64,000 nt of DNA. It comes from Zootoca vivipara (Eukaryota). The stretch covers positions 41,726,001 through 41,790,000 of the forward strand of contig NC_083288.1 in assembly GCF_963506605.1 (NCBI RefSeq), in the 5' to 3' direction. Positions 39,430 through 57,639 of the stretch are shown here, piece by piece. Position 1 is the stretch's first letter. Each line of letters starts with the position of its first letter. A model generated the notes under the pieces. The model did not search any database. It worked only from the letters and a program-made list of their open reading frames with translations, and was not told the DNA's origin. The position numbers and the translations under genes are program-made.

Positions 39430-40245
39430 TCAGGGTACTTTGTCAGGGAGACAAGCTACATGACCTGCTCTATTGACTTGTTCATGCTTTAATTCTTTCT
39501 TAGAATAATTCTTTCTTAGAATAAACTGTCTCCTGCTGTTTAACTCTGGCCTTAGCAAAATGATATAACATTTGGGGGAAAAGATACAGCCCAATAATCC
39601 AAAACAAGAGGCCAAAATAGAAAAGATCTCCACAGCCACCATATACTTTCCCTTGGTACTCAGGTAGGTAGGAACAAAGGACAGCCACACACTGCAAAAA
39701 ACCAACATGCTGAAGGTGATAAACTTGGCTTCATTAAAACTGTTGGGTAACTTCCTGGCTAGGAAGGCTACACTGAAACTAACCATGGCCAAGATTCCCA
39801 TGAAGCCTAGGACACAGTAGAACATGGTGACTGATCCTTCGTTACACTGCAGTACAATTTCTTTAGTCCCTGAGTGCTTGTCTAAATGAGGGAGTGGGGG
39901 AGCAACTATCAGCCAGGCACTGCAAATAATCATTTGAACAAGGAAGCTGAAAAGAACAATAGAGATGGACACATGTTTCCCCACCCATCTCCTCATTCTG
40001 GTCCCTGGCTTGGTAGCCATGAAGGCTAGAACCACTATAATTGTTTTTGCTAAGATGCAAGACACTGCTACTGAGAAGATGACTCCAAAAGCAGTCTGTC
40101 AAAGGAGGCAGGTTATTTTTGTGGGCTGGCCAATGAAGAGCAAAGGACAGAGGAAGAAGAGAATGAGGGCTAGGAGGAGAACATAGGTGAGGGTCCGATT
40201 GTTGGCTTTGATGAGTTTCTTTGTGTTTGATGAAGATCCTAAACA
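39430..40245 (-). pseudogene. Orphan V2R exon-6 (7TM) fragment, copy 2
   Basis: ORF 39430-40065 is near-identical to copy 1. Premature TGA at 40099-40101 in place of the conserved Arg of CLLRQ. The 5' side is fused to a LINE RT fragment. Confidence 0.9.
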
Positions 40246-40900
40246 AGATACAAAGGCTTGTTTAGCCAATGAGGTGTTCGAGGCATCTGTGAGGTTGGTG
40301 ATAAAACACAGAAATCTTAAGTGGGCCCTGGCAGACACAGAAGGTAATTTTACTTCCACTCTTAGGAAAGCTGCTGGAGTACCCTGAGGGAGGCCTAGAA
40401 TTCTTCTGAGATAATTTTTTTGGAAGATTTCAAGCCGTTCCAGCAGCTTCTGATTCCATCCCCAGAGTTCTACCCCATATAGCATCTGGGGAATCACTTT
40501 TCCAACAAAAGCTTTTAGTGCCGGGATCACCAGTTGCCCTCCCCTCGTATTAAAAAAAACTGAGCAAAGTACCGATTGTCCTACGTGTTAGAAGGGTTAC
40601 AGCCTTGAAGTGGGCAAGCCAGCTAGATGTAGCTTGGAAAGTAATACCAAGATATTTTAAAAACGGACACTGTTCATTTATGTGTTCATCTAAAGACCAT
40701 CTAAATGTGTGGCGAGCTCTAGTAAACACCACCATTTTGTTTTGTCATAATTTATCTTTAAAGAGTTTTGGGAACAATAAGCTGCGAGCCCCTCCAGCAT
40801 GCTGTGTAGACCCCTTTGAGTAAGTGCCATGACAGCCATGTCATCAGCATATAAAAATATATTCAGATGTTTGCCTTCCAGGGCAGGAGCTGATGACTTG
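40246..40900 (-). mobile_element. Non-LTR retrotransposon RT fragment (RTE-X-like)
   Basis: YADD motif near 40840-40852, [18 protein letters not shown]. Confidence 0.8.
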
Positions 40901-41267
40901 TACTTGCCATATGTTGAACAATGTCAATAACATATTTTAAAATAAACCAAAAGAATGTGCATTAAACAATAGAGGTGGTCTGTCCATAAATATTAGAATA
41001 TAATGTTTTAGGTAATATCATGAGCACTAGAGAGTATTGTGAATGCAGTGAACTTTTGGAACCTCCACCATGACTTGAGTCCTTGGCTCACATTATGGCA
41101 CAGTGTGGTTTATTTATATAACACTTTTTAGATCATCATCAAAGACCACCAAACCGGTGAGCAACATAAATGCAGCTGTATATATGTTATTAAATGAAAT
41201 CACAAATAGTCATTAAAATCTATAACGCATGTTAAAACAAACCAAAGAAAAGGGAGAACTTGACACC

Positions 41268-45677: not shown

Positions 45678-48677
45678 TATTAAGGTACACTTTGAAGTAG
45701 TTTCCCTGTTAATTTTGTTATAATTGATACTTTTGAGTAGACAGTTCTAGAACTGATTTTGGTGCAGGTGGCTACACCTATTCTTGGACCCATCAGATGC
45801 TGCCTGGAGTAGAGTTCCGAAAAACTGATATTCTACCTGGACCTAATGACCCACAATCAGATGAAGGATTGTGTGATGCAAAAACCACATTTGCTTGGAT
45901 GCAGCTTGTAGTGGGGTCTGTGAATGGTTTGGATTAGGGAGAGAAAACCTAGCTTTTCTTATTTTCATCTGAAGTAGGATCCCCCTAAAGTCTATTCACA
46001 CTGTTAGCCATTCTTAACTTTATTTTGTAATAAAAGGGTTCTTCTGTTTTGTAACCTCCTTAATAAAATATTGGTCTTCTAGCAGTAAACCTTTGGCTCT
46101 TAATCTGGTACCTGAATGCTCTGGTCATACAACACTCATCAATTTCCGACTCAAAAGACAGTGAGTAGACCTGCAGGTGGATAATGATTGCTTATTCAAT
46201 ACTGAATCTCTTTTGAATTAGCAAACAATGCAACTCTACCTGGTTAAACCAACTGTGCCATGTGATGGCATCTTCATCAAGGAGCAATGATTGGTCTGGT
46301 GGAGCCTGTGGATCTATCCTCCCAACTCTCACTCTCTGCAAACTTTGGTTGGTGAATATAATCCAATTGACAATATCCAAGCTAGATGATGCCTCTCCAT
46401 TCTGGTTGATGAAGACCACATCTCTGGCCGTATTGTTAAATGAGATACTTCTCAGAAAGTGATGGAGCTACATTAAAAACAGAAAAGACAAGGGTTTGGA
46501 AAAGACTGCAGTTGAATGCACGGAGGAGCATTTTCCCCTATGAGCAGAACCTACAGCAAATGATATGGGGTGATTCAGTCAACTATCAGTGGATTCAGGT
46601 CCAAGCTTGGAGAGAGTCAACCAATTTTCTTTCACACATTTTCTTTCTCAGTCTTCCTTACAACCCGTCTACCTATGAAAGTCCACAAGTTAAATATGTG
46701 TGAGTAGCGAGGTTTTTCTCTCTACTCCTCCTCCTCCCCTTCACTGAACTTCTCGGAAGACGCGGCAGTGGTGTGTGACCACCAGTTCCAAGGAAGGATT
46801 TTGTTGATATGGGATGGAGGGAATGCTGAACATCTCTCTCAACCATTACCTCACCTTAGTATATATGATTGCAGTGGCACCTCTCTGGGCTGTAAAGCTT
46901 CCCTTATACAAATGCTTTCTCTTCACACACAGGATGGTACAGTCAAACCTTGGAATTCAAATGTAATCTGTTCTGGAAGGACTTTCAACTTCTGAAATGT
47001 TTGATTTCCGAGTCATACCTATTGGTTCTTTCAATTCCGGTTTGTAAACCGGAACACTTAATCTGCGCTTTCAATGTTTGGGAACTGAAACGTTTGGCAA
47101 CGGAGATGATCAGAAACCAATCTTTGAATGGAATGGGATATCATGGGACCACAAAGCTTCCCTCATACCAATGCCTTCTGCTCAAACACAGGGCAGTACC
47201 TGCTCAAATAAGGACACAACCATCACTTCCCTTCCCTATAGGGTCTACTGCCATTTGCAAGCAGAACAATATACAGGGAATCATCTAGGATACCATCATA
47301 TCAGTGCCACCTCTTACTTTGTCTGCAGAATTATAAATTCAGTTCTGGGTTCTTCTTCCTCATGCACTAGTTCAACTGTTTGAACTCTGAGAGGAAAGAG
47401 CAAGCTGAAAGCATTTTGGGAACCCATACAGTGTCAGAAAGTAACAGGGCTTCGTGAGTTGAGGATGTTCAGCCTTTACCTGCCAAAACTGTGGATTTGG
47501 ATTCTTCCTTCTCCCTCCGTACACCATTCCTCTGTGTCTGAGTCTGGATGTGGACATGGCATGTAAAGCATGGGCCATGGCGTAGACAGCACTGTGGATG
47601 CTGTAACTGTGGCCTGTCATGCTCATTTCAAAAAGTGATCCAGGAAGGTTCTCCAGCTTCTCTTCTCCTGTGCAAATATTCCCCACCACCTTGTCTGAAG
47701 TGATATCTGGGAATTCACATCCAAAGGTCTGTTGCCAGAAGTCCCTGATAAAACCGTCCCCTTCTGTGGTGGAAGGGTTTCTGTGCAGAACATATTGATG
47801 AAATCCTGGTAGGTTTCTGAAGTGAATTTCAAAGGCTATAGCACCATTGAATATTCCTGAATCCCAGTCCCTTTGAAAGACATATGAAGCAAACTCAACT
47901 TTGGCTGTTGATATCCATACTTTACTTCTTACATTATTTCTTATGTCATCATGTTCTGATAGGTAAGGAAGCCATCTAAAAGTTCCCATGGAACAAGATT
48001 CCCCATAGGCAACCACTACGTTAGCTTTGCTGCTAAAAATATTCTGGCTTATTGTTGCACCCTGTTCTAGCATTCCATTAATTTCAGAAATAAACTATAT
48101 TTTGGAATTTTTTCTATGAATGCAAAGCAGACACCACTCTTGGTAAACATTGGGAAAATGGTTTGTACAAATCTTTCTCCCTTGTCATTATCTGTTGCAA
48201 TGACTCCAATCCACGTCCACCTGAAATGCAGAAGCAAAGAGAGAATCCCCTTGTACTGAAGGGCTTCTGGGGCTGCCATCTGGTAGAAGGGAAGCCCTGG
48301 GCTTTTCTCATTCATCACTGGAGCAGAGCCATAAATGAGCTAAAGTGGGAATGGAGGAAGAGAAGAGACCAAGTAATATTTGCAGAGCTCTTTTAAACTA
48401 TTCATATATATTATGTAGTGAATCCTGTTAGTCAGATATGCCCTTTTCCACCCACCAGGCATTGCATGCCCTCTCCAATTCATACAAAAGACACACATGC
48501 AGATGGGCTGAAAATTGAGGTCATATTCCATTCCTGCTTGTAAAACATTTGTTCTGTTGACCTGAGAGGGGCATTTCCCCTATTATATTCTTAAAAAAAC
48601 AAAGAAATCCCCTTTGTGTACTTTCCCAATTGGGCAGGGCAAAGCTGACTGGAGGGACACACCATGCCCTAAACAGA

Positions 48678-49528: not shown

Positions 49529-50452
49529 ATTATTTACTGCAGCCACATCAGAATTGCAACTTGGGTCAGATACACATTTCTTGCTGGATTTTTTTTTTGT
49601 CTTAATTATGCACATATCCTAGCACACTTCCCTTTCTGCCTCTTTCTCAAGACTTCTTAGACTTTGTCTATGAACATTTATTTCACTTTGGAACCAGCTG
49701 CTCAATACTATTGCTGTTCTCCTGCAGAACTGGACTCTATCTGCAATTTGCCATAACTCCAGAGTGTGTTTAATTTGAAAGCCCTTTCCCCCTAAGCATT
49801 CACATATTGGGTGTGGTGTTCTGAAGAGGAATAATTATTGTACTTTGACTTCCTTGTGAATTTTTATCCTGTAAGCAATTCCCCCACAACTCAATTCAGA
49901 TACCCTTCTCATTAAGCAGGAAATGCTTCATATCCAAAAATGACTGGTGAGGGTGGAGTGCATGGTTCTGCCCCCAATTTCATCCTCGCCCTGAAGTGGG
50001 GATACACTCTGAACTGGTGCTGTGAATTCCGCCTCATTCTCTATGCAAGCTAAGAGAGGTACTGTCTTACCTGTGGAATCTTATAGATATCCAACACTGT
50101 TGCCACATAAAAGGAGATTTCAGAATTAAGTCCCCCAACGACCCCAGCCAGATTATTTTCAACATCACATGTGTAGTTTGGGACAAATTTCTCCACCCTG
50201 GATAAAAGCAGCAGTGTGGCAAGATATGTGCTCCTTGCATTGTCATAGCTGTCATATAAGCGAAACCCCAAGGTGATATTGGGTAAGATGTGAGGGTCTT
50301 CATTGATCTCCTTGACTGCAAATGCCAAGGCCACAATGTGCTGGTAAAGCTTAGGCACTACCCTAGAATGAGAGTTGTAAACAGTATCAGAAGGAACAGA
50401 TATAATTAGGAATAGTTAATCATATAGAGTTCAGTGAAGTTAACTCCCTGTC

Positions 50453-51030
50453 CATTCCACTGCTGAACAGTTCTAATAATCAGCAAGTTCTTCCTCATGT
50501 TTACACAGAATCTCCTGTCTTGCAACTTGAATCCATTGGTTTTGGTCTTACCCTCTGAAGCAAGAGAAAACAAGCTTGCTCCATCTTCCTGGTGCCAGCC
50601 CTTGAGATATTTGAAAATGGCTATCCTATATCCCCTCAGTCTTCTAATTTCATAGCTCAACATACCAACCCCCCTCAACTTTTCCTCATAAGGTTTGGCT
50701 TCTGACCCTAGAACATATGTGTCCGCCTCTTCTGCACATGTTGTAGCTTCTCAGTATCCTTCTTAAATTTTGGTTAGCACAACTGAACACAATACACTAG
50801 GTGTGTTCTGTGCAATGCAGAAGAGATCTCTTCTGGGTTTTTTGTTTTGTTTTATTGAGGCACTATGCTTCTGTTGATGCCGACACAACCCTTTTCAGGT
50901 GTACTACCGGCAATCCAGGTGTTCCCCATCTTATATTTGTGCAGCTGGTATTTTCTGCCTAAGTGCAGAACCTGACATTTGTCCCTATAGAAATTCATTT
51001 TCTTTGTTTTCTCCAAGTTCTCCATTCAGT
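50453..51030 (-). mobile_element. CR1 fragment in gene D intron 1
   Basis: [22 protein letters not shown]; collinear with the copy in C. Confidence 0.85.
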
Positions 51031-52377
51031 TAAGGGCAATGGTATCTAGACCAAAGGTTGCTCATCTGGTGCTCATAGGAACTTTGAAACATCTGAAGTC
51101 TTTTCCTGAAATTTTCAAAGTTTCAGAGCTCTCTCCTGCCAATGACCCCTTCCTTACTCATGAGGCAGAGATGGTGGCTGTAATTACCAGAATTCTCTAC
51201 TTCATAATATATGTCATCATTGTGAAACAAACTTTAACCTAAGATCAGGAAATGAAACAATATGAGCATTCCGGTTCTGTAAGGCTTTTTCATTCATTTT
51301 CACTAACACTCCTGTTTCAATAAAGTCTATCAAAATCGGCTGTTCAAAAGGGCTGTCTCAGACACATAAATATGTACCAGTATGCATTTCAATACATTTA
51401 TATTCATTTCCCTATCAAGAAATGGGAGCTTCTAGAGAATTATCTTAATTCAGAAAACATTCCTATGTATTTTTACATCAGCATATGTCCCAATGAAATC
51501 GAAACTGGTTATCACTAGGTTAATCGGTAGACGTTTGCGGTCTAAGTTGTTATGCTGAGGCTGCAACTCTAGGTTTGATCATTTCTCTGCAGTAATAAAT
51601 GAGTGACTTAGTTCTCACACAAGCTCTTCAGGCAGCGCTGGTGGGGGTTCCTCAGTGAATGTTGCTGGAGAGGAGATGAAGCCACCCTGGGAAATAATGC
51701 CACCAATGAGGAATTCTCCTGGCTGATGGTACGTTTGAAGTGGACGGTGTGGACTTTGTAGCCTGCATCTTTCTATGTGAGCCTGACATACTTTGTAAGA
51801 AAACAGTTGCAGCAGCAAGACCACTAAAACCACCATCCATAGAAGGGCAACTGTTTGTTCTACACAGAAACCATGATTTCTCTGGCAATAGTATAATGAG
51901 CTTCTCCAAGTTAAAAAATGTCTCATTTGAATCATAGTTAAGTTTCCTGAGAGGATGCAATCTGAGAGTATCCCAGACACTATTTAAGGAATCCTGGTTA
52001 AATTGCAGTATCCTTTGTGTCATGTTGCCAGTTGCCAGTGAAAATGCAGAGGGATTTTTGAGGAGCAGCAGATTTAATTATAGACCTGTTAATAACCAAG
52101 GAGGAATCTAGGTATTCATTGCTAGGGATTCCCTGTGGAATAGCTGAAGGAAATGTGTTTGTCGCATATTCAGGACTGTTATTTTTAATTTCCTTAATTA
52201 CATATTAAGGGACCAGTGGTGTATTGGTGAAGTTAGAAGTTCTTCATAGAAGACCTTGTATCCAATGGAGAAACCGATATGTAGTATGGTGTAGTCAGGA
52301 TCCTGGGATTTGACTGAGCAGACCTGGATTCACACCAGCCACGTAACATGACTGCAAACCTACGCGTAGCAGTTACT

Positions 52378-52554
52378 TGGGACTAAGCTTCCATGGTTTT
52401 TTTAAAAAATCACTTGTAAAATATGGTGAATTTTACAACAATATCTTTAGTAGTTCTTTAATTCCTCCTTTAATTCAAAGAACTACTAAAGATATTGTTG
52501 TAAAATTCACCATATTTTACAAGTGATTAAAAAAACCATGGAAGCTTAGTCCCA
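52378..52554. repeat. Fold-back inverted repeat (~80-bp arms)
   Basis: 52378-52459 is the reverse complement of 52477-52554 apart from a few bases in an A/T run. Confidence 0.93.
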
Positions 52555-52610
52555 TGTAAGAAATCAGTTTCAGCAGCAAGACCACTAAAACCACCATCCA
52601 TACGAGGGCA

Positions 52611-53360
52611 GGAGGAATTAAAGAACCTTTTAATGAGGGTGAAAGAGGAGAGTGCAAAATGTGGTCTGAAGCTCAACATAAAAAAAAACCCAAGATCATG
52701 GCCACTGGTCCCATCACCTCCTGGCAAATAAAAGGGGAAGAAATGGAGGCAGTGAGAGATTTTACTTTCTTGGGCTCCATGATCACTGAAGATGGTGACA
52801 GCAGTCACGAAATTAAAAGACGCCTGCTTCTTGGGAGAAAAGCAATGACAAACCTAGACAGCATCTTTAAAAGCAGAGATATCACCTTGCCGACAAAGGT
52901 CCGTATAGTTAAAGCTATGGTTTTCCCAGTAGTGATGTATGGAAGTGAGAGCTGAAACATAAAGAAGGCTGATCGCCAAAGAATAGATACTTTTGAATTA
53001 TGGTGCTGGAGGAGACTCTTGAGAGTCCCATGTACTGCAAGAAGATCAAACCTATCCATTCTTAAGGAAATCAGCCCTGAGTGCTCACTGGAAGGACAGA
53101 TCGTGAAGCTGAGGCTCCAATACTTTGGCCACCTCATGAGAAGAGAAGACTCCCTGGAAAAGACCCTGATGTTGGGAAAGATTGAGGGCACTAGGAGAAG
53201 GGGACGGCAGAGGACGAGATGGTTGGACAGTGTTCTCGAAGCTACAAACATGAGTTTGACCAAACTGCGGGAAGCAGTGCAAGACAGGAGTGCCTGGCGT
53301 GCTCTGGTCCATGGGGTCACAAAGAGTCGGACACGACTAAATGACTAAACAACAACAAAA
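52611..53360 (+). mobile_element. BovB (RTE) LINE, 5'-truncated
   Basis: [40 protein letters not shown], tail AAACAACAACAAAA. Confidence 0.95.
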
Positions 53361-53993
53361 CCAACCAAAGCTGTAGTGAAAGTCAATAAAAGAGCAAAAG
53401 TGACTAAACTGATTCCCAGAGGCTCATTGTAAGACAGGAAGCTTATATCTTTTGGAAGACATATATCCTGGCCAATGTTTGGGTACTGATCTTCTGGACA
53501 TTGAAAACAGTCGTCCATGTCTGAAAACACAAAACAAAAACCTGTTTACTGAAGACTTTTAGAGTCCAGTGGTGGTAGGGGGAAAGGCTTTTTTGTTTTA
53601 TATCCCATTTTTTACTTGACTCTTCAAAGCATTCAACAATATTTAGAAAACAAGGCAAAACTACCAGCCCCTTGAAACAGCAGTGAGCACCGAATGTTTC
53701 TTTGTTCAGTTAGCTCTGTCTTTACCCAACTAAACCAGGCGCTGATGTGGTATTTTGCTCTGTTCTTCCTTCCCACAAGGCAAGTGTCTGTTGGCCCTAG
53801 TCCACATTTCCCCCCTATATCTCTCATTCAATGTCATATTTGTGGAAATAATGCAGATAGATGCACATTTCATAAACTACTTCAATATTTTGGTGGAATG
53901 CAATTAAATCTCAGCAGACTACAACCCTCCAAGCGTCCATATTTTCCAGGGATGTCCTGATTTGATCCCCAAATGTCCCACTTTTCCTTAGGA

Positions 53994-55079: not shown

Positions 55080-57639
55080 CTTCAATCAGCTGACAGTAGT
55101 GTTCAATGTGGAGACTTGGTACTTGCCTATCCTGCCATCACATGCTTAATGAATGAAATGGGGTTTTAGCTCCCCCCCCCACAAATACAGTGAATGAGCA
55201 TGCCTAATATTAATTGGAGGTGGGTTCTAGAATGTTGGTGCTACCGCTCTGAATTAATGAATCCTTGTAAGTGCAGAAGGAACATTAAGTGGCATATGAA
55301 TGTTCAGATTGAACAAGGCTCACTATATTTACAGAATACTGAGAAACAGCCGTTTGGGTAACTATCTTCTTCCTGACCATTTGGCAGGTGATGGAATGAA
55401 CCCTGAAAAGTGCAGAGAACCCACCTGGTTAAATTGGTTGGGCCATACAATGGCATCCACATGAATGATGAACGATTTTTCCTGGGTACCCAGAGAGTCT
55501 ATCTTCCCAATTTTGACTCTAAGAAAGGACTGATTTGGAAACATGAGCCAGTTTATAATGTCAAAGTCAGCAAGTAATTTGCCATTTTCATCAAAGTGCA
55601 CCTTTTCTCCTGCACTGTTGTTAAATGAAATACTTTTGAGAATGTGGTGGAGCTAAATAATATAAATAAAAAGGAAATTTATATAAATGTTCTAATTATG
55701 TTATCATAGAACATGGTGAAAATACATCCAAGGTTCAGGATTATGATCCCATGAAAGCTTTGTGCAAGGGAATTTTAGAATTCAATCCTGAGCTGAGGAT
55801 TTTTAAAAAGAAGTAAGAGGGAGAAAGTGATTCTCAATATAAAACATTTGCTTGTGCGTATTTGTGTTCTGTGTTTGAATTTTTCATGATAGGCTTCTCA
55901 AAGTGTTGTGATTATATCCAAACATCTACAGAAATCCAATCTACCCTTCAATGCTTATATAAGGGGGATTAATGTGAATGAAGGCCCATTGCTTCTATCA
56001 GTGAGAGGCAATATCACACAAAGGCACGGCTGAACTAAAACTATGACACTGCAGACAGCAGTAGATTCAGTCCTGTTGGAAACTGTTTTGCCAACACATT
56101 CCCTGGAAGGAACATATTTATTTGACTTGTGATTTTGAACTAATATTCGCATTTGCTTTCCAAACAGAGACAGCAGCGCATTTTAAAATTTGTGTTGAAG
56201 GAACAAATTTTTATCTTGAAGCTGCTCACAATAATGACAGCATTGTTGTTGTTGTTGTTATTGTGATTGTAATATAACAACAACAACAACAGTACAAACT
56301 CACAGTGATTCAAAATATCAGAAATAGCTGCTGCAGGAGTGAATTTTCCAATGGTGAGTAGAGGATACAATCCTGCCAGGGTCACCTTCTTTTCATTTTT
56401 GGCAGGGACCATACTGGTGAAGCAGATCCTACAGATTGCAGGATTGAATTCTCTGCTTACCTGCCGGGGTCTACTTTCCCTGTGCATTCCCTGCAAAGAA
56501 CACACTGGTGAAGCAGGCGCCTGCAACTATCAGGACTGAATCCTCAACTCACCAGATGCTCTGCCTAGGGGATTCTACTGCTCCATCTGAATGTGTGTTT
56601 CAGTCAACTGCTTGGTACAGTCACGTGCTGACAAATCTTCCTACCCAAGACCCTGTCCCTGAAAGCCTGAGAGCACTCCTGGGGGCCAGACTGAATCTGG
56701 GACTGTCTCTACCTAACTCATCTCATTCCACCCAAATTAGCTTTGACTGAATCTGATGCAAAGTCCTTGCAACTCCTTCTTGACTGCTCTCTCCCTGTGT
56801 TTGATGTGTGCATGGATCTGTCAATATTTATCCCAGTTTTGTGTTTTTAAATCTTATGTTTAATTCTCCATACAATCACATCAACTAGCATTTTTTAAAA
56901 CCTCATGAAAATTCATTACTGACTAAAATACAAATCTTATATACTATTTTTGCCTTATATGCACATTTTTGCAAATACACCAAAATAATGTTATTTTTAC
57001 AAATGTGCATTTTTATGCACACTTTACCTTAATCTGTGCATTTTTGGACACATTGTTTGACTGAATACATGCGTTCCACAATCAGGGTAAGTTTGAATTT
57101 CAGAGAATGGCTGCATGTAAATTCTGTGAAATTCTGATGTGAATGCATTTAGATCTTACTTGTGGTATCTTGTAGGTAGACAGGATGGGTATCATGTGAA
57201 GACAGACATTAGAATTAGGTCCCCCAATGACTGCTATTGGAGTGTTCTCAGCATCACATTTATAGTTCGGGATGACCCTGGTCCTTCTGGAGAGAAGCTC
57301 TATTGAGGCTTCATAGGTCCAGCTTGCACTGAAATGGCTGTTATAAATGTGGAAGCCCAGGGTGACGTTTGGCAAGATCTGGGGAGTTACACTGATCTCC
57401 TTTACAGCAAATACCAAGGCCAGGATGTGCTGGTAGAGGTGAGTCAGCACCCTGTATTGAGAGTTACATGCCACATTTACAGTTCATCTGCTTCAGACAA
57501 TAACATTGACTGCTTTTCAGTTCAGTATCCCATTCAAAAATAGTTTGTAATATCATATTTCACAGGTGTGTAAAAGAAGACTAGATAATGAAACAGTATG
57601 TGAATTAGTAGTATATATGGTCACCCTACATATGCATGA

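What the first reader, a model, noticed from the sequence alone, without database searches (positions are those of the whole stretch)
52378..53370. Multi-template-switch scar at a BovB insertion that appears to have deleted a V2R 7TM domain
Seen, left to right: host sequence collinear with units B and C stops at ~52453. Then come 16 nt (GTTCTTTAATTCCTCC, 52453-52468) that are the exact reverse complement of the BovB copy's own 5' end (GGAGGAATTAAAGAAC, 52611-52626); a TTTAATTC re-copy; an ~80-bp inverted copy of the host flank (52477-52554); a 56-bp copy of V2R exon 1 from ~750 bp away (52555-52610, cf. 51794-51849); and BovB, whose 3' tail lands inside exon 6 of gene E. There is no TSD, and the ~1 kb that follows in units B and C (3' flank plus most of the E-type exon 6) is missing. 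Inference: one retrotransposition event resolved by iterative templated synthesis (Pol-theta end joining or MMBIR-like) with target-site deletion, truncating a receptor gene. The captured exon-1 piece keeps B-like bases (AAATCAG, CATAC) that D lacks, so it may be a snapshot of the ancestral allele.
Basis: partly seen in the sequence, partly recalled or inferred. Interest (0 to 1): 0.7.

Follow-up and report, generated by a model that had tools for sequence, protein, structure and literature searches.

The report
Jumping-gene scar with patchwork filler DNA
A BovB jumping-gene copy sits where about 1 kb of a vomeronasal (smell) receptor cluster is missing, joined on by three small pieces copied from nearby DNA; this is likely one botched insertion of a kind already known from human L1 elements, in a gene copy that has lost three other exons too.

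Summary
The scar is real and nearly as described. Host DNA stops at 52454. Then come a 17-nt reverse copy of the BovB's own 5' end, a 7-nt re-copy, a 78-nt fold-back of the flank, 55-56 nt of V2R exon 1, and a 750-nt 5'-truncated BovB ending in exon 6 of gene E. Against the intact sister unit F-G, 1,004 bp are gone, including nearly all of the 7TM coding sequence. Short-read contigs cross the junctions without a difference, so it is not an assembly chimera. The exon-1 piece carries the ancestral base at all three informative sites. Best reading: one retrotransposition with target-site deletion and templated 5' extra nucleotides, a known class. Small templated fillers are common at BovB 5' ends here (28 of 104, control 3 of 104); this one is the extreme. 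Corrections: E also lacks exons 1, 3 and 5, so this event need not have killed it; the 3' junction misses the BovB cut motif; a later deletion through an older BovB is not excluded. Side finding: 9 of 104 BovB copies show a stereotyped 5' inversion.

The parts
51794..51849 (-). Likely donor of the captured piece: 13 nt of leader plus the first 14 codons of V2R gene D exon 1 (ATG at 51836-51834)
   Evidence: a 29-nt core of the piece occurs with at most 1 mismatch at 3 places in the whole genome: B, D and the scar
52378..52454 (+). Host flank upstream of gene D, last stretch collinear with units B, C, F; template of the fold-back; its T/A run is 4 nt longer than in the inverted copy and in paralogs
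52453..52469 (-). 17-nt reverse copy of the BovB copy's own 5' end (2-nt microhomology with host); stops exactly at the truncation point
52470..52476 (+). 7-nt slippage re-copy of the filler (2-nt microhomology); can also be read as the hairpin loop/stem of the fold-back
52477..52554 (-). 78-nt fold-back copy of 52378-52459, including 5 nt of the new filler
   Evidence: crossed by X1 contigs
52555..52609 (-). 55-nt copy of V2R exon 1 start, same orientation as the gene; 2 private changes, ancestral base at 52564, 52574, 52603; 52610 is a 1-nt overlap with BovB
52610..53358 (+). 5'-truncated BovB (RTE-clade LINE) with intact 3' end and short CAA tail; no TSD
53359..53363 (+). About 5 nt between tail and host, probably a re-copy of the first host bases
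   Evidence: inference
53364..53540 (-). Remnant of exon 6 of V2R gene E: end of the cysteine-rich region and the first half of TM1; the rest of the 7TM is missing
   Evidence: 7tm_3 begins at residue 37 of the intact exon in D
55395..57465 (-). Remaining exons 4 and 2 of gene E; exon 3 removed by a separate 2.6-kb deletion near 55780, exons 1 and 5 also absent

Best explanation
This is a 5'-truncated BovB copy that replaces 1,004 bp of a V2R gene cluster and is joined on its 5' side by three locally copied pieces, likely all made in one insertion event. Shown: identity, order and orientation of the pieces, the size of the loss, the absence of a TSD, and that the fold-back copied filler that had just been made. 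Inferred steps: (1) reverse transcription was primed in exon 6 of gene E and stopped after about 750 nt; (2) the other host end was trimmed back about 1 kb; (3) that end primed on the sense strand of the truncated BovB by 2 nt and ran off its 5' end (a miniature second priming), slipped once, then snapped back and copied itself for about 80 nt; (4) either that strand or the cDNA end copied 55 nt of exon 1 from the resected single-stranded flank 600-660 nt further left; (5) the two extended ends were joined through a 4-nt (or 1-nt) microhomology. The polymerase is not identified: the element's own reverse transcriptase and host microhomology-mediated end joining both fit.
For: All pieces are nested between the host end and the BovB 5' end with no separate TSDs. 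The reverse copy ends at the exact truncation base, where full copies continue with G. Junction-proximal re-copies of 8 nt or more occur at 28 of 104 other BovB 5' ends against 3 of 104 control windows (5 of the 28 are simple repeats); at least 7 of them (L100, L102, L104, L124, L199, L202, L204) sit inside an 8-13 nt TSD-like pair, so such filler arises during insertion (read). Second priming by the host end on BovB RNA is common here: 9 of 104 copies have an inverted 5' end, 8 of 9 with a 10-12 nt TSD. E is sister to G (4.0% in the exon remnant) and D's flank is closest in BLAST to F, so F-G models the empty site. Precedent: PMC11702581 (passages) reports 3 L1-mediated insertions with inversion of host DNA at the reciprocal end and 3 with sequence templated from nearby DNA; PMC4245944 (passages) reports 5' extra nucleotides derived from flanks for an L2 element.
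Against: No empty-site allele of the D-E unit itself was seen; contigs of 4 other organisms show no scar junction but also no identifiable D-E allele. The 3' junction does not fit the BovB cut motif derived from 43 TSD-bearing copies (rank 266 of 1,600 positions; 2 of 43 training sites score as low, with G as stand-in). The two fold-back arms have 0 substitutions in about 69 nt, improbable (p about 0.01-0.13) if they are as old as the BovB's 1.5-3.2% divergence, which hints at a younger fold-back or later homogenisation. E has three other deletions, so a deletion that happens to end inside a BovB is not rare in this array.
Confidence: 0.62

Rival explanations
1. Two steps: a BovB first inserted normally into exon 6 of E; a later double-strand break deleted the 1-kb left flank, the left TSD and the 5' part of the BovB, and host repair (Pol-theta-type or microhomology-mediated template switching) wrote the filler from both ends.
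For: E carries three further deletions, B and C one each in exon 6; fold-back arms look younger than the BovB; every filler template is DNA next to one of the two ends.
Against: Filler of this kind is enriched at BovB 5' ends that keep their TSD; a normal first insertion should mostly show the T|A cut motif at the 3' junction, and this one does not.
Confidence: 0.24
2. Endonuclease-independent patching: a break already existed at this point of exon 6 (a fragile spot), and BovB RNA was reverse transcribed into it during repair.
For: 3' junction misses the cut motif; 3 of 10 copies of this exon type in 264 kb are broken within 14 bp of the same spot (B at G-scale 67314, C at 67300-67303, E at 67303).
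Against: The copy has a complete 3' end and tail, whereas the non-classical L1 insertions of PMC1920257 are defined by 3' truncation and no tail (passages). No sequence feature explains a fragile spot.
Confidence: 0.1
3. The 7TM was not deleted but displaced: C's 7TM remnant (ends exactly where E begins) and E are two halves of one gene split by a 13-kb duplication-insertion.
For: C's remnant ends at G-scale 67300-67303 and E starts at 67303.
Against: C's and B's remnants group with the gene at -89 kb (bootstrap 100) and are 10.9% from G, while E is 4.0% from G; C's junction leads into the inside of an unrelated LINE.
Confidence: 0.03
4. Assembly or library fold-back chimera.
For: Fold-backs are a known long-read artefact (own knowledge).
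Against: Short-read contigs of run X1 cross the junctions with no difference; the inverted arm and the exon piece differ from their present templates in the ancestral direction.
Confidence: 0.01

Closest known systems
LINE insertion-mediated deletion / long target-site truncation with 5' extra nucleotides (L1, L2; PMC4245944 passages; PMC2912911 passages)
   Same: Intact 3' end and tail, 5' truncation, no TSD, host sequence lost on the 5' side, filler derived from flanking DNA and joined by short microhomology.
   Different: RTE-clade BovB in a germ line; filler is 155 nt long with four switches, including a 78-nt fold-back and a piece from 600-660 nt away.
Non-canonical L1 insertions with inverted host DNA or locally templated inserts (PMC11702581, passages and section 6; its figures S9-S10 not seen)
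   Same: Inversion of genomic DNA at the reciprocal end and extra sequence templated near the site.
   Different: Those were de novo events in cultured human cells, each feature in 3 insertions; here both features and a reverse copy of the element's end occur in one inherited locus.
Twin priming 5' inversion (PMC2912911, PMC11702581)
   Same: Host end primes by microhomology on the element's sense strand and makes an inverted piece.
   Different: Only 17 nt, duplicating the truncated end rather than continuing upstream; TSD lost, whereas L1 twin priming keeps it.
Endonuclease-independent (non-classical) L1 insertion (PMC1920257, passages)
   Same: No TSD, target deletion, filler, poor cut motif; one reported case deleted an olfactory receptor gene model.
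   Different: 3' end and tail are intact here.
Pol-theta end joining templated insertions / MMBIR (recalled, no call)
   Same: Iterated short copies from both break ends in both orientations with 1-4 nt microhomology.
   Different: Enzyme cannot be told from sequence; 55-78 nt pieces are long for typical Pol-theta inserts (recalled).

Membership tests
LINE insertion-mediated deletion with 5' extra nucleotides | Element has an intact 3' end and tail at the host junction | tested here: met
LINE insertion-mediated deletion with 5' extra nucleotides | No TSD and host sequence missing on the 5' side | tested here: met
   1,004 bp relative to paralogous unit F-G
LINE insertion-mediated deletion with 5' extra nucleotides | Extra nucleotides derived from flanking DNA or the element's end | tested here: met
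LINE insertion-mediated deletion with 5' extra nucleotides | Endonuclease cut motif at the 3' junction | tested here: not met
   rank 266 of 1,600; G used as stand-in for the empty site, 4% diverged
LINE insertion-mediated deletion with 5' extra nucleotides | Orthologous empty site shows that deletion and insertion are simultaneous | tested here: inconclusive
   4 other organisms show no scar junction, but fragmented contigs cannot be assigned to the D-E unit
Twin priming 5' inversion | Inverted element piece primed by microhomology on the host end | tested here: met
   17 nt, 2-nt microhomology
Twin priming 5' inversion | TSD kept; inverted piece joins the primary cDNA directly | tested here: not met
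   no TSD; 140 nt of other filler lie between
Endonuclease-independent (non-classical) LINE insertion | 3' truncation and no tail | tested here: not met
   criteria from PMC1920257
Endonuclease-independent (non-classical) LINE insertion | No TSD and divergence from the cut motif | tested here: met
Pol-theta end joining / MMBIR scar | Dependence on POLQ or on replication restart | not testable with these tools
   needs mutant cells
BovB (RTE clade) | CAA-repeat tail, about 3.2-3.5 kb full length with one long ORF, Tn-TA insertion motif in the family | tested here: met
   3.23-kb copies with a 1,036-aa frame; T at -1 in 35 of 43, A at +1 in 41 of 43, T at -12 in 31 of 43; description in PMC13295347 Results. 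No Repbase or Dfam comparison was available.

The most novel reading that the evidence does not exclude
The whole scar was written by the BovB reverse transcriptase jumping between templates, and the exon-1 piece was copied from the 5' end of a V2R mRNA present in the germ line; the scar would then be the extreme of a BovB-specific habit of second priming by the host end, seen in the 9 of 104 copies whose inverted piece is always the first 180-250 nt of the element while about 1.9-2.9 kb between are skipped. The orientation and exonic position of the piece allow an RNA template, but a DNA template explains them equally well.
Probability: 0.08. Interest if true: 0.6.

Novelty: new member of a known kind. 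Interest (0 to 1): 0.27.

Why it matters
As a single locus it is a clean, inherited teaching example of how a LINE insertion can delete host DNA and leave an ordered record of template switches, in an RTE-clade element for which my searches listed no such description; it also keeps a 55-nt sample of an older V2R exon-1 state. Its biological effect is probably small: gene E is a redundant, multiply deleted copy whose sister G has open frames in the exons checked. The by-product, a stereotyped BovB 5' inversion, may matter more for how RTE elements finish insertion.

Tried and rejected
Displaced-7TM model (C remnant + E as one split gene): rejected by tree and distances. Assembly chimera: rejected. 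Distant donor for the exon piece: none closer than B, D, C, F among the 30 exon-1 loci fetched of 40 listed or by genome-wide pattern. BovB cut motif as the cause of the three clustered exon-6 breaks: the spot scores poorly. Cross-species laying (X3, X7, X8, X12): no cover at 52461-52473 and 52539-52551 in 4 of 4, which is a hole and proves nothing. Raw reads X20 (about 1x) give 1-5 reads in each bin across the scar, but no read was shown to span a junction; X21 has no cover over most of it. Pfam found nothing on the BovB pieces or on E's exon 4 and exon 6 remnant (2 of 6 peptides hit). My first count of 5' inversions (0 of 104) was wrong because the reference lacked the element's 5' end; redone with a full-length natural copy it is 9 of 104. 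Rows dropped before the base rates: of 136 loci, 12 without the 5' end or enough flank, 10 duplicates, 10 without the 3' end; the loci are top BLAST neighbours of the focal copy, not a random sample. Earlier scan notes: nothing found. Paper search on V2R clusters and transposons: listing only, nothing used.

Full report
Setting. The window is G000:C13:41726001-41790000, part of a tandem cluster of V2R-type receptor genes on the minus strand (7tm_3 and ANF_receptor hits; exon map). I read 100 kb on each side; positions outside 1-64000 below are on the window's scale. Two gene types alternate. The unit just beyond the window (genes F and G) is collinear with D and E on both sides of the finding: 49633-52454 with 63443-66298 (89.5%) and 53364-53985 with 67303-67920 (93.7%). 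It serves as the model of the empty site.

Observation. Host sequence ends at 52454. 52453-52469 is the exact reverse complement of 52610-52626, the first 17 nt of the BovB; 2 nt are shared with the host. 52470-52476 repeats part of that filler. 52477-52554 is the reverse complement of 52378-52459 and so contains 5 nt of the BovB-derived filler: the fold-back copied a strand that had already been extended. 52555-52609 is V2R exon 1 (leader plus 14 codons); the switch can be read with a 4-nt microhomology at 52556-52559 and one mismatch. The BovB runs from 52610 to its CAA tail at about 53358, and host exon 6 resumes at 53364. 1,004 bp of the F-G model are absent, among them 747 nt of exon 6; what remains of E's exon 6 ends half-way through TM1.

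Is it real? Contigs of short-read run X1 cover 52430-52506, 52514-52600 and 52571-52636 with no other letter at depth 28-46. X1 may or may not be the assembled individual, but the data type is independent of a fold-back in a long read only if the assembly was made from other reads, which I cannot check. A second argument needs no reads: the inverted arm lacks 4 nt of a T/A run that the forward arm has and paralogs B, C, F and H lack, and the exon piece differs from D at 4 of 55 sites; a chimera would copy the present sequence.

The captured exon piece. Against D it has 4 differences, against B 3, C 5, F 7, and 10 or more against the other exon-1 loci fetched (30 loci of 40 listed). Two differences (52570, 52604) are not shared with B, C, D or F. 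At 52564 and 52603 it agrees with B, C and F against D; at 52574 it agrees with D, F and the outgroups against B and C. It thus has the ancestral base at all three informative sites. Contigs from three of four other organisms match the whole piece with 2 other letters and the fourth matches 47 nt with 1 (that these are the private sites is inferred, the tool does not list them). The snapshot idea holds, but no D-specific base is shared, so D is the donor by proximity only. A 29-nt core occurs at just 3 places in the genome with at most one mismatch: B, D and the scar.

How unusual for BovB here? I collected 136 loci of close BovB relatives; 104 had both ends in view after dropping 12 + 10 + 10. 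They are top BLAST neighbours, not a random sample. 43 have a TSD of 8 nt or more right at the junction. 28 have a re-copy of 8 nt or more within 40 nt of the 5' junction, against 3 control windows 200 nt further out (5 of the 28 are simple repeats); at least 7 have such filler inside a TSD-like pair (read). 1 of 104 has a reverse copy of its own end of 12 nt or more, 4 have a fold-back of 20-27 nt (one a microsatellite), 4 a local copy of 20 nt or more (two microsatellites), and none combines these. 9 of 104 have an inverted piece of the element's first 180-250 nt, 8 of them with a 10-12 nt TSD. So templated filler and host-primed second synthesis are routine for this family, and the focal scar is the far tail.

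The 3' junction. The 43 TSD-bearing copies reproduce the Tn-TA motif described in PMC13295347 (abstract and Results read): T at -1 in 35, A at +1 in 41, T at -12 and -11 in 31 and 26. The focal junction, scored on G, ranks 266 of 1,600; 2 of the 43 training sites score as low. The fit is poor but not impossible.

Age and order. The BovB is 3.2% from the majority of its 29 nearest copies, an upper bound because 20 of 26 differences are shared with at least one other copy. E and G differ at 56 of 1,290 and 26 of 441 intron sites, so the insertion followed the D-E/F-G duplication closely. The fold-back arms show no substitution in about 69 nt (p 0.01-0.13 for ages of 3.2-1.5%), which counts against strict simultaneity or points to homogenisation of the inverted repeat. 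E lacks exon 3 (2.6-kb deletion near 55780), exon 5 and exon 1, while G has open frames in exons 2, 3, 4 and 6 and has exons 1 and 5. Which lesion came first cannot be told.

An alternative that I tested. C's 7TM remnant ends at G-scale 67300-67303, exactly where E resumes, and B's ends at 67314. If C's remnant were E's missing half, the 'deletion' would be a 13-kb insertion. It is not: B's and C's remnants group with the gene at -89 kb (bootstrap 100) and lie 10.9% from G, whereas E lies 4.0% from G, and C's junction runs into the middle of an unrelated LINE. Three of 10 copies of this exon type are nevertheless broken within 14 bp, which I cannot explain.

Mechanism. Shown: pieces, order, orientation, microhomologies of 1-4 nt, size of loss. 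Inferred: priming in exon 6; trimming of the left end by about 1 kb; priming of that end on the sense strand of the truncated BovB with run-off at its 5' base; a slip; snap-back; copying of exon 1 from the resected left flank, by either end; final joining. One event (0.62) is favoured by the nesting and by the family's habit; a later deletion through an older BovB (0.24) and patching of an existing break (0.10) remain. The polymerase cannot be named from sequence.

Comparison. PMC4245944 (passages) describes long target-site truncations and 5' extra nucleotides derived from flanks; PMC2912911 (passages) gives twin priming, template jumping and extra nucleotides in 14.6% of 5'-truncated L1; PMC11702581 (passages and one section; supplementary figures S9-S10 not seen and may show very similar junctions) reports 3 insertions with inverted host DNA and 3 with locally templated sequence; PMC1920257 (passages) reports an olfactory receptor gene model deleted at a non-classical L1 insertion. 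Pol-theta and MMBIR signatures are recalled, not looked up. My searches (listings only for papers not named here) showed no paper on such scars or on 5' inversions in BovB; the library is incomplete, so this is no proof of absence.

Verdict. A real, well-preserved, unusually elaborate example of a known outcome of LINE insertion, with little likely effect on the organism. Interest 0.27.

Noticed in passing
L028, L125, L130, L133, L138, L142, L148, L182, L195 (BovB copies elsewhere in G000): Stereotyped 5' inversion: 9 of 104 BovB copies carry an inverted piece that is always the first 180-250 nt of the 3.2-kb element (reaching nt 1-9), joined to a 3' part of 140-1,176 nt; about 1.9-2.9 kb are skipped and 8 of 9 keep a 10-12 nt TSD. 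L1 twin priming has adjacent breakpoints. Three share a breakpoint near 369 nt from the end and may be one subfamily. Possibly more interesting than the finding itself.
   Followed up: partly
window 27016, 40245 and 53364 (G-scale 67300-67314): Three of 10 copies of this exon-6 type in 264 kb are broken within 14 bp of one spot by apparently independent events; the spot does not fit the BovB cut motif. Unexplained.
   Followed up: partly
window 40245-40934: Internal reverse-transcriptase piece of a different, multi-copy LINE (93-95% to its best copies) on the minus strand; its 3' part was removed by the deletion that truncated C's exon-6 remnant. Family not named.
   Followed up: partly
window about 48090-48100: Gene D exon 3 has a 1-bp deletion relative to B, C and F: D is probably a pseudogene too, or this is an assembly slip in a short T run; not checked against reads.
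   Followed up: no
window 51892-52467, run X21: No reads over most of D's upstream region at about 1x depth while X20 covers it: a weak hint that unit D or the scar varies between individuals; dips in depth are unreliable.
   Followed up: no
window 52395-52409: The T/A run in the forward arm is unstable: 4 nt longer than in the inverted arm and paralogs, and run X20 shows another form.
   Followed up: no
L194: BovB with its first 184 nt fused in forward orientation to the last 815 nt: an internally deleted copy.
   Followed up: no
G-scale 75448-76212 and -80794 to -80048: G's exon-1 region is 95.6% identical (99% in the exon) to a gene 156 kb away, much closer than their other parts: likely gene conversion.
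   Followed up: no
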